From assembly GCF_045037415.1 (NCBI RefSeq), contig NZ_CP173438.1: a DNA stretch of 64,000 nucleotides, one strand, 5' to 3'. The notes beneath the pieces are model-generated. The model did no database searches. It was not told the DNA's origin and worked only from the letters and a program-made list of their open reading frames with translations. Positions within the stretch are counted from its first letter, which is position 1, and each line of letters starts with the position of its first letter. Made by a program: the position numbers and the translations under genes. This DNA comes from Escherichia coli. GTDB lineage: Bacteria > Pseudomonadota > Gammaproteobacteria > Enterobacterales > Enterobacteriaceae. This document shows positions 19,999-20,022 of this stretch, piece after piece.

Positions 19999-20022
19999 GG
20001 TGTACTAGGTATCCCATTATGC
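19999..20022 (+). promoter_or_regulatory. putative NanR-type operator (imperfect GGTATA-like hexamer repeats) upstream of the nanA paralogue
   Basis: GGTGTA cta GGTATC cca TTATGC, 3-bp spacing as in the core nanA operator; weak. Confidence 0.3.

What the first reader, a model, noticed from the sequence alone, without database searches (positions are those of the whole stretch)
19999..20022. Nan-box-like hexamer repeats directly upstream of the nanA paralogue
GGTGTA-cta-GGTATC-cca-TTATGC resembles the three GGTATA repeats at 3-bp spacing bound by NanR at the core nanA promoter. The island operon may therefore answer to the chromosomal NanR, to the island NanR paralogue at 27125-27859, or to both. 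The 96-bp divergent interval between the nanR-like gene and nanS (27860-27955) contains no such repeats.
Basis: partly seen in the sequence, partly recalled or inferred. Interest (0 to 1): 0.4.

Follow-up and report, generated by a model that had tools for sequence, protein, structure and literature searches.

The report
NanR-type operator before island nanA
The short repeats in front of the second sialic-acid operon of this pathogenic E. coli island are very probably a real repressor-binding site, a two-box relative of the known NanR operator sitting behind a CRP site; this is an expected kind of switch, not a new one.

Summary
The sequence at 19999-20022 is exactly as reported. Only the first two hexamers (GGTGTA-cta-GGTATC) are meaningful. 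The third (TTATGC) matches GGTATA at 0 of 6 positions and is not conserved.

The motif alone is at chance level: 6 hits at two or fewer mismatches in the window, against about 3 expected. Comparison with related clusters makes the case. Three diverged copies exist (two E. coli plasmid-type lineages and the Proteus chromosome; regulator 70-79% identical). In the 19-bp core TGGTGTACTAGGTATCCCA (19998-20016), 17 of 19 positions are invariant. The 37-bp spacer upstream has 6 of 37 invariant positions and the 26 bp downstream has none.

A CRP-like site (19942-19963) lies exactly 37 bp upstream in all four lineages, as at K-12 nanA. All seven promoters compared share TGGT.TA..AGGTAT.

The island NanR paralogue keeps 8 of 9 proposed DNA-contact residues (N89K) and all four zinc ligands.

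Best reading: a two-box, partly palindromic NanR-family operator in a CRP-dependent promoter. It probably controls nanA'...est2 (20045-27089) and is probably bound by the island NanR. Binding, cross-talk with core NanR and the inducer are untested. I class it as a new member of a known kind, of moderate-low interest.

The parts
19998..20016 (+). Conserved 19-bp operator core TGGTGTACTAGGTATCCCA. It holds two Nan-box-like hexamers at a 9-bp period. Flanking TGG and CCA give an imperfect inverted repeat (TGGTGTAC / GTATCCCA).
   Evidence: 17 of 19 columns are invariant across four lineages, against 6 of 37 in the spacer and 0 of 26 downstream. It is the only weight-matrix hit above 17 bits in the 64-kb window; that test is circular in part, because this site helped build the matrix. 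SNPs in variant strains fall outside it.
19999..20004 (+). Box 1, GGTGTA (5 of 6 to GGTATA).
   Evidence: It aligns with box 1 of K-12 nanA, nanX and nanC.
20008..20013 (+). Box 2, GGTATC (5 of 6 to GGTATA; GGTATA in Proteus).
20017..20022 (+). It is not part of the element.
   Evidence: It matches GGTATA at 0 of 6 positions. The aligned positions differ in every lineage (TTATGC / TCATAT / GTGCAT / ATTTTG).
19942..19963 (+). CRP-like site, tttTTTGAtaatctTCACAttg (TTTGA-N6-TCACA). TCACA lies at 19956-19960, exactly 37 bp before the operator.
   Evidence: The same site and the same 37-bp distance occur in pYZ_2_1_1, L010, Proteus and K-12 nanA; the distance is 38 bp at K-12 nanX and nanC. 10 of 21 columns are invariant.
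19978..19985 (+). TGG, which MAFFT aligns as invariant in all seven promoters, followed by GATAAT. These are candidate -35 or -10 elements of a weak, activator-dependent promoter.
   Evidence: Alignment A1. The consensus sigma-70 scan finds no promoter on the + strand in the 19300-20200 stretch. The transcription start is not mapped, so the assignment is inferred.
20045..27089 (+). Presumed controlled operon: nanA' (20045-20962), nanK' (20996-21871), sialate MFS transporter (to 23392), alpha/beta hydrolase (23396-24226), KdgM-type porin (to 24982), nanM' (to 26104) and a second alpha/beta hydrolase, est2 (26154-27089).
   Evidence: NCBIfam assignments and the Nissle 1917 annotation. A terminator-like hairpin follows est2 at 27110-27137. 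No second operator was found inside the cluster.
27125..27859 (-). nanR', the island NanR paralogue and the presumed cognate repressor.
   Evidence: 52% identical to K-12 NanR. Its closest solved structure is E. coli NanR, 6ON4/6WFQ/6WG7, E = 5e-73. 8 of 9 DNA-contact residues and all zinc ligands are kept.
27956..28945 (+). nanS', a sialate O-acetylesterase, divergent from nanR'. No Nan-box pair lies in its upstream interval.
19530..19928 (-). Transposase pseudogene and insertion-sequence (IS) remnant. It ends about 14 bp upstream of the CRP-like site, so the promoter is just intact.
   Evidence: Annotation. Similarity to Klebsiella and Raoultella plasmid sequences stops at window position 19928.

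Best explanation
The element is a NanR-family operator inside a CRP-dependent promoter for the accessory sialic-acid operon nanA'-nanK'-MFS-esterase-porin-nanM'-esterase.

Shown here:
- A 19-bp block (19998-20016) holds two GGTATA-like boxes at the canonical 9-bp period.
- This block, and a CRP-like site exactly 37 bp upstream, are the only strongly conserved non-coding blocks among four diverged lineages of the cluster.
- The layout is collinear with the K-12 nanA, nanX and nanC promoters.

Inferred:
- Without sialic acid, dimers of the cluster-encoded NanR' occupy the operator. The operator would span about -16 to +3 if CRP acts from -61.5, or about +5 to +23 if CRP acts from -41.5. Either way it would block RNA polymerase.
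- A sialic acid binds the zinc-containing effector (FCD) domain of NanR' and releases it.
- cAMP-CRP supplies activation.
- Core NanR may also bind, because two boxes suffice for it in vitro, but each island box carries one mismatch.
- nanR' and nanS' lie outside this control.
For: 1. Footprint. The core has 17 of 19 invariant columns and 0.95 mean pairwise identity. The spacer scores 0.47 and the downstream stretch 0.26. This holds across the island, plasmid pYZ_2_1_1, the L010 E. coli lineage and Proteus. NanR' of the other three lineages is 70-79% identical to the island protein.
2. Polymorphisms avoid the core. This is seen in L014, L011, the Proteus variants L009 and L015, and deer strain 48. 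Of 687 E. coli genomes with the site, 665 are identical over the 46-bp query.
3. Shared architecture. TCACA-37 bp-TGGT occurs in all four accessory promoters and at K-12 nanA, with 38 bp at nanX and nanC. TGGT.TA..AGGTAT is invariant in all seven.
4. Further sites of the same type. In plasmid-type clusters est2 is a separate transcription unit. TTGGTATGCTTAGTATACCAA and TGGTATACTAAGCACTCCA lie just upstream of it, each behind a TTTGTGAT half-site.
5. More distant NanR homologues have TGGTATA-nnA-G.TAT sites next to their nan genes (Edwardsiella and the L031 and L033 contigs).
6. Regulator. NanR' keeps S33, E58, R59, G68, R69, S71, R73 and E91, with N89K in every accessory copy. It also keeps the zinc ligands D172, H176, H222 and H244, and R128. 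These residues were defined in PMC8012715.
7. Published biochemistry. A (GGTATA)2 oligonucleotide binds K-12 NanR with KD about 25 nM, while one repeat does not bind (PMC8012715).
8. Co-occurrence. 691 genomes carry nanR' and 687 carry the operator, out of 5426.
Against: - No binding or expression data exist for this locus in the literature I could search.
- As a bare motif the match is at chance frequency.
- There are only four independent lineages, and two of them (pYZ and L010) are fairly close.
- The transcription start and -10 element are not mapped, and the sigma-70 scan finds no + strand promoter in the 19300-20200 stretch.
- Each box has a mismatch to the K-12 consensus. The third box needed for the K-12 three-dimer complex is absent.
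- NanR' has a shorter N-terminal extension, about 24 residues before the residue equivalent to S33, against 32 in K-12 NanR. That extension mediates cooperativity in K-12 NanR.
- The element can also be drawn as a hairpin.
Confidence: 0.8

Rival explanations
1. The site is mainly an operator for the chromosomal core NanR. The island operon would then be simply another member of the host sialoregulon, and NanR' would be redundant or act elsewhere.
For: The left 15 bp (TGGTGTACTAGGTAT) differ from the K-12 operator at only 3 positions. Two boxes are enough for K-12 NanR in vitro (PMC8012715). K-12 nanC naturally tolerates a degenerate box, GGTGCA.
Against: The accessory operator type always travels with NanR', including on plasmids and in Proteus. 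It differs from the core type in a consistent way: G in box 1, CTA spacer, CCA tail and no third box. This parallels a consistent N89K change in the wing of NanR'. Conservation of the CCA tail is not explained by the core NanR consensus.
Confidence: 0.12
2. The conserved block acts as a nucleic-acid hairpin rather than a protein-binding site. It could be a 5'-UTR stem-loop affecting mRNA stability or translation, or a DNA cruciform.
For: RNAalifold draws a 10-pair hairpin, and three flanking pairs change on both sides in some sequences. The Proteus version folds at -12 kcal/mol with z = -3.7. The pYZ est2 site sits in a 17-bp-arm palindrome.
Against: The island version folds at -7.4 kcal/mol with z = -1.1, and 29 of 200 shuffles fold as well. 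The homologous K-12 operators at the same promoter position are direct repeats without this hairpin. Dyad symmetry is expected for a dimeric GntR/FadR-type repressor. The stem positions themselves never vary, so they give no covariation evidence. It is not known whether the element is transcribed.
Confidence: 0.05
3. The resemblance is chance, with no function.
For: Two-box matches at two or fewer mismatches occur about 3 times per 64 kb by chance, and 6 are seen. The third 'repeat' is clearly spurious.
Against: Fifteen consecutive columns are invariant across four lineages whose flanking non-coding DNA is 26-47% identical. The distance to a CRP-like site is fixed.
Confidence: 0.02

Closest known systems
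E. coli K-12 NanR operators (Nan boxes) at nanATEK-yhcH, nanXY (yjhBC) and nanCMS
   Same: Both have direct GGTATA-like hexamers at a 9-bp period preceded by T. Both lie in the promoter of a sialic-acid operon, 37-38 bp downstream of a CRP half-site. TGGT.TA..AGGTAT is shared. In both a GntR/FadR-type regulator with a zinc-containing FCD domain is encoded nearby.
   Different: The island site has two boxes instead of three. Box 1 is GGTGTA and box 2 is GGTATC. The spacer is CTA rather than ACA. A conserved CCA follows box 2, giving dyad symmetry with the leading TGG. The regulator is a 52%-identical paralogue with N89K in the wing and a shorter N-terminal extension. nanR' is convergent with the operon end and 7 kb from the operator, not immediately upstream of it.
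FadR-type palindromic operators of the GntR family
   Same: Both show imperfect dyad symmetry over about 19 bp, with TGG and CCA ends. This is compatible with one dimer contacting two half-sites. PMC8012715 notes that NanR engages DNA in a manner analogous to FadR.
   Different: The half-site spacing and sequence are not those of FadR. The left 15 bp are clearly homologous to NanR direct repeats.
The 'nan module' of the pheV genomic island of uropathogenic E. coli
   Same: It is the same gene cluster, described as 99.6% conserved at the nucleotide level among GI-pheV islands (PMC11537424).
   Different: In the passages retrieved from that paper the module is discussed as gene content only. No promoter, operator or regulator analysis appears.

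Membership tests
NanR operator (Nan box) | Two or more GGTATA hexamers in direct orientation separated by 2-3 bp | tested here: met
   GGTGTA-cta-GGTATC: each box matches 5 of 6, with a 3-bp spacer. A third box is absent (0 of 6). Two boxes suffice for K-12 NanR in vitro (PMC8012715).
NanR operator (Nan box) | Location within the promoter of a sialic-acid utilisation operon, at a fixed distance from a CRP site | tested here: met
   The site lies 29-47 bp upstream of the nanA' start codon. TCACA-37 bp-TGGT is the same as at K-12 nanA. The transcription start is not mapped.
NanR operator (Nan box) | Conservation in orthologous promoters above the non-coding background | tested here: met
   17 of 19 columns are invariant, against 6 of 37 and 0 of 26 in the flanks, across four lineages.
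NanR operator (Nan box) | A cognate NanR-family repressor with conserved DNA-reading residues | tested here: met
   NanR' passes the NCBIfam NanR model (273 bits, cut-off 260). 8 of 9 contact residues are kept, with N89K. Its best PDB match is NanR.
NanR operator (Nan box) | Physical binding by NanR and derepression by Neu5Ac | not testable with these tools
   This needs EMSA or footprinting and reporter assays. No published data for this locus were found.
NanR three-dimer cooperative operator, (GGTATA)3 | Three boxes that allow three dimers to assemble | tested here: not met
   The third hexamer is not a match and is not conserved. At most a two-box complex is expected.
CRP-dependent promoter | A TGTGA-N6-TCACA site at a class I or class II distance from the promoter | tested here: inconclusive
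   TTTGA-N6-TCACA at 19945-19960 is conserved in position and sequence. Its centre would fall near -40 if GATAAT (19980-19985) is the -10 element, or near -61 if TGTACT (20001-20006) is. The transcription start is unknown.

The most novel reading that the evidence does not exclude
NanR' and its partly palindromic two-box operator may form a second regulatory pair that is insulated from the core one. It would co-reside with core NanR in about 13% of complete E. coli genomes, including ST131, CFT073 and Nissle 1917. It might respond to a different sialic acid, such as an O-acetylated or otherwise modified form. This is suggested by five changed residues in the Neu5Ac pocket and by the three esterases in the cluster. 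The wing change N89K together with the CCA tail would provide the discrimination between the two operators.
Probability: 0.25. Interest if true: 0.55.

Novelty: new member of a known kind. Interest (0 to 1): 0.35.

Why it matters
The accessory nan cluster is carried by about one in eight complete E. coli genomes, mostly extraintestinal pathogenic lineages and the probiotic Nissle 1917. Sialic-acid use affects gut and bloodstream fitness.

Knowing the cluster's switch gives a concrete, testable model for when the extra lyase, transporter, porin, mutarotase and esterases are made. The model has three parts: a CRP site, a two-box NanR-type operator and a dedicated NanR paralogue.

It also matters for NanR-based biosensors and circuits built in Nissle, where a second NanR could interfere.

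Finally, it offers a natural pair of related repressor-operator systems for studying how specificity diverges. The mechanism itself is what a specialist would expect.

Tried and rejected
- Third hexamer TTATGC: rejected. It matches 0 of 6 and is not conserved.
- Motif statistics alone: the two-box pattern is not enriched in the window, so significance had to come from comparison with related loci.
- A second operator in the nanR'-nanS' interval: none found by pattern or weight matrix, and that interval aligns poorly between lineages. A block shared only by the two plasmid-type lineages (GATCTTGCCATATATACA) was not pursued, because those lineages are too close to each other.
- Possibility that the IS remnant had replaced the promoter: rejected. 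IS-type similarity stops at 19928. The 63-bp match in strain EC15 is an IS1-mediated deletion junction, not IS sequence.
- Wider sampling: a scan of 100,044 species-representative genomes with the NanR' alignment found only E. coli-derived contigs and Proteus faecis. The protein search found no further close lineages. The clade is narrow, and four lineages is all there is.
- Sigma-70 consensus scan: no + strand promoter in the 19300-20200 stretch.
- The Kalivoda 2003 and 2013 papers could not be read. The position of the K-12 operator relative to the transcription start therefore rests on the summary in PMC8012715.
- Literature searches for any description of regulation of the island cluster found none.

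Full report
**Where this is**

The window is part of a genomic island of B2-type E. coli. The stretch 19400-21000 is 100% identical to Nissle 1917, ST131 strains and others. In Nissle the island gene iha lies downstream and IS66 elements lie upstream.

The accessory sialic-acid cluster contains these genes:

| Gene | Coordinates | Strand |
|---|---|---|
| nanA' | 20045-20962 | + |
| nanK' | 20996-21871 | + |
| sialate MFS transporter | to 23392 | + |
| alpha/beta hydrolase | 23396-24226 | + |
| KdgM-type porin | to 24982 | + |
| nanM' | to 26104 | + |
| second alpha/beta hydrolase (est2) | 26154-27089 | + |
| nanR' | 27125-27859 | - |
| nanS' | 27956-28945 | + |

A 2024 paper calls this cluster the conserved 'nan module' of the pheV island. 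The passages retrieved from it do not discuss its regulation (PMC11537424).

**The observation**

The bases at 19999-20022 are exactly GGTGTActaGGTATCccaTTATGC.

The K-12 nanA operator reads TGGTATA-aca-GGTATA-aa-GGTATA. nanX (yjhB) has the same sequence, and nanC has GGTGCA as its third box. The canonical spacers are therefore 3 and 2 bp.

Boxes 1 and 2 of the island element each match GGTATA at 5 of 6 positions. The third hexamer matches at 0 of 6.

As a bare motif this is unremarkable. The two-box pattern at two or fewer mismatches occurs 6 times in the window against 2.96 expected. With a 2-bp spacer it occurs 2 times against 3.18 expected. A K-12-derived 16-mer at three or fewer mismatches hits 4 times against 0.68 expected, including this site. 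The position, directly upstream of nanA' on the sense strand, makes chance unlikely but does not settle the matter.

**Comparative evidence**

Diverged copies of the whole cluster exist:
- An IncF plasmid, pYZ_2_1_1, carries a copy whose nanA region is 69% identical at the nucleotide level (locus L005).
- A second E. coli lineage is represented by L010 and L011.
- Proteus chromosomes carry it in L006-L009 and L015.

Their NanR' proteins are 75%, 70% and 79% identical to the island protein. A scan of species-representative genomes found no further lineages.

Upstream of nanA' the four lineages read:

| Lineage | Sequence upstream of nanA' |
|---|---|
| Island | ...cttgaTGGTGTACTAGGTATCCCAttatg |
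| pYZ_2_1_1 | ...ctcgtTGGTGTACTAGGTATCCCAtcata |
| L010 | ...cttacTGGTGTACTAGGTATCCTAgtgca |
| Proteus | ...tagatTGGTGTACTAGGTATACCAatttt |

I aligned the sequences without gaps, anchored on TGGTG, and scored each block:

| Block | Invariant columns | Mean pairwise identity |
|---|---|---|
| 19-bp core | 17 of 19 | 0.95 |
| 37-bp spacer upstream | 6 of 37 | 0.47 |
| 26 bp downstream | 0 of 26 | 0.26 |
| CRP-like site | 10 of 21 | 0.71 |

Within-lineage polymorphisms avoid the core:
- L014 has a SNP immediately 5' of TGG.
- L011 has one in the spacer.
- Proteus L009 and L015 change an extra upstream GGTATA to GGCATA.
- Deer isolate strain 48 has three spacer SNPs and a T-run indel, with an intact core and intact CRP halves.

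Among 5426 complete E. coli genomes, 687 carry the site and 665 are identical over the 46-bp query. nanR' is present in 691.

**Shared promoter architecture**

TTTGA/CGTGA-N6-TCACA lies with its TCACA exactly 37 bp before TGGTG in all four accessory promoters. K-12 nanA has GTGA-N6-TCGCA at the same 37 bp, and nanX and nanC have it at 38 bp.

MAFFT aligns all seven promoters collinearly. The invariant columns include TGGT.TA..AGGTAT and a TGG about 17-18 bp upstream of the operator. The island promoter is therefore a diverged homologue of the NanR/CRP-controlled promoters.

In the island the CRP-like site is at 19942-19963. The insertion-sequence (IS) remnant upstream ends at 19928, so the promoter is just intact. 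The 63-bp partial match in strain EC15 is an IS1 deletion junction, not IS sequence.

**Two boxes with dyad symmetry**

The third hexamer is not conserved. The trinucleotide after box 2 is CCA in three of the four nanA' sites and CTA in L010.

In plasmid-type clusters est2 is a separate transcription unit. Operator-like sites lie just upstream of it: TTGGTATGCTTAGTATACCAA in pYZ and TGGTATACTAAGCACTCCA in L010. Each sits behind a TTTGTGAT half-site. Both est2 sites also end in CCA, so five of the six accessory sites do. They share TGGT.T.CT..G.A..C.A with the nanA' sites.

The accessory operator type can therefore be written as an imperfect palindrome, TGGTrTAC-N3-GTATmCCA, whose left 15 bp equal two Nan boxes.

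More distant NanR homologues have related sites:
- Edwardsiella: TGGTATAACAGGTATACAGGCATG.
- Contig L031: TGGTATAATAGGTATAAAGGTGGT.
- Contig L033: TGGTATACTAGCTATTCAGG.

A weight matrix built from the accessory sites finds only this site in the 64-kb window at 30.3 bits. The next-best independent sequence scores 14.5 bits and lies inside a coding region. This test is partly circular because the island site contributed to the matrix.

**The regulator**

NanR' is 52% identical to K-12 NanR. It passes the NCBIfam NanR model. Its closest solved structure is E. coli NanR, 6ON4/6WFQ/6WG7.

Of the nine DNA-contact residues proposed by Horne et al. (PMC8012715), eight are identical. N89 in the wing is K in every accessory NanR'.

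The zinc ligands (D172, H176, H222, H244) and the carboxylate-binding R128 are kept. Five Neu5Ac-pocket positions differ: N165P/T, F168Y, R203K, H214N/Q and S218T.

The N-terminal extension mediates cooperativity in K-12 NanR. In NanR' it is present but shorter.

Horne et al. showed that two GGTATA boxes bind NanR with KD about 25 nM. One box does not bind, and lengthening the spacers abolishes binding.

**Mechanism**

Shown:
- A conserved two-box element sits at a fixed distance from a conserved CRP-like site in front of nanA'.
- A NanR-family regulator always accompanies it.

Inferred:
- NanR' dimers occupy 19998-20016 and block transcription.
- A sialic acid releases NanR', and cAMP-CRP activates the promoter.

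The transcription start is unknown, and two arrangements fit. If GATAAT (19980-19985) is the -10 element, CRP is centred near -40 and the operator lies at about +6 to +24. If TGTACT (20001-20006, the counterpart of K-12 TATAAC) is the -10 element, CRP is centred near -61 and the operator covers -16 to +3. Both are classical CRP positions and both allow repression.

The sigma-70 scan finds no + strand promoter in the 19300-20200 stretch, as expected for an activator-dependent promoter. The operon probably ends at a terminator-like hairpin after est2. nanR' and nanS' have no such site in the island.

**Rivals**

- Core NanR could bind as well, or instead. Co-inheritance and the parallel changes in operator and wing favour NanR', but only binding assays can decide.
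- A hairpin reading exists. It is weak for the island sequence (z = -1.1), and the homologous K-12 operators lack such a hairpin.
- Chance is excluded by the footprint.

**Novelty**

I found no description of this operator or of the regulation of the island nan module. It behaves like, and meets the testable criteria for, a NanR-type operator of two-box form. It is a new member of a known kind, with a modest twist: dyad symmetry and a dedicated paralogue.

Noticed in passing
window 20045-28945, compared with L005 7142-16155 and L010 1632-10689: The accessory nan cluster exists in two circular permutations. The island and Proteus have nanA'...nanM'-est2 | nanR' | nanS'. The plasmid type has est2 | nanR' | nanS'-nanA'...nanM'. 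In the plasmid type the operator lies between nanS' and nanA', and est2 has its own operator-like palindrome.
   Followed up: partly
L006 8880-17042 (Proteus): The Proteus version of the cluster lacks nanK'. It has about 800 bp of AT-rich DNA upstream of nanA'. An extra GGTATA lies 4 bp before the core and is polymorphic (GGCATA in L009 and L015).
   Followed up: partly
L030 (strain EC15), junction at about window 19987/19988: An IS1 insertion deletes nanA' through est2 and truncates the end of nanR'. The CRP-like site and nanS' remain. This is a natural deletion variant of the operon.
   Followed up: partly
L035 (deer isolate strain 48): The same nan cluster sits in a different island context, next to the subtilase cytotoxin gene subB. 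The promoter spacer has SNPs but the operator core is unchanged.
   Followed up: partly
L013 and L014: Metagenome-assembled genome contigs labelled Collinsella sp. and Bacillota bacterium carry a nanR' 100% identical to the E. coli island copy. They are probably mis-binned E. coli DNA.
   Followed up: no
window 27125-27859 (NanR'): The Neu5Ac-pocket residues differ from K-12 NanR at five positions (N165P, F168Y, R203K, H214N, S218T) while all zinc ligands are kept. This hints at a different or broader sialic-acid effector. The cluster also encodes three esterase-type enzymes.
   Followed up: partly
window 26113-26141: An inverted repeat, aggtgactg...cagtcacct, lies in the 49-bp gap between nanM' and est2. 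It has no T-run and its function is unknown.
   Followed up: no
window 44096-44114: A near-perfect palindrome, TGGAATACAATGCATTCCA, was the next-best independent weight-matrix hit (14.5 bits). It lies inside a 1112-aa ORF (41979-45317, minus strand) and is probably coincidental.
   Followed up: partly
window 19940-19947: A run of T immediately upstream of the CRP-like half-site varies in length and sequence between strains (deer strain 48).
   Followed up: no
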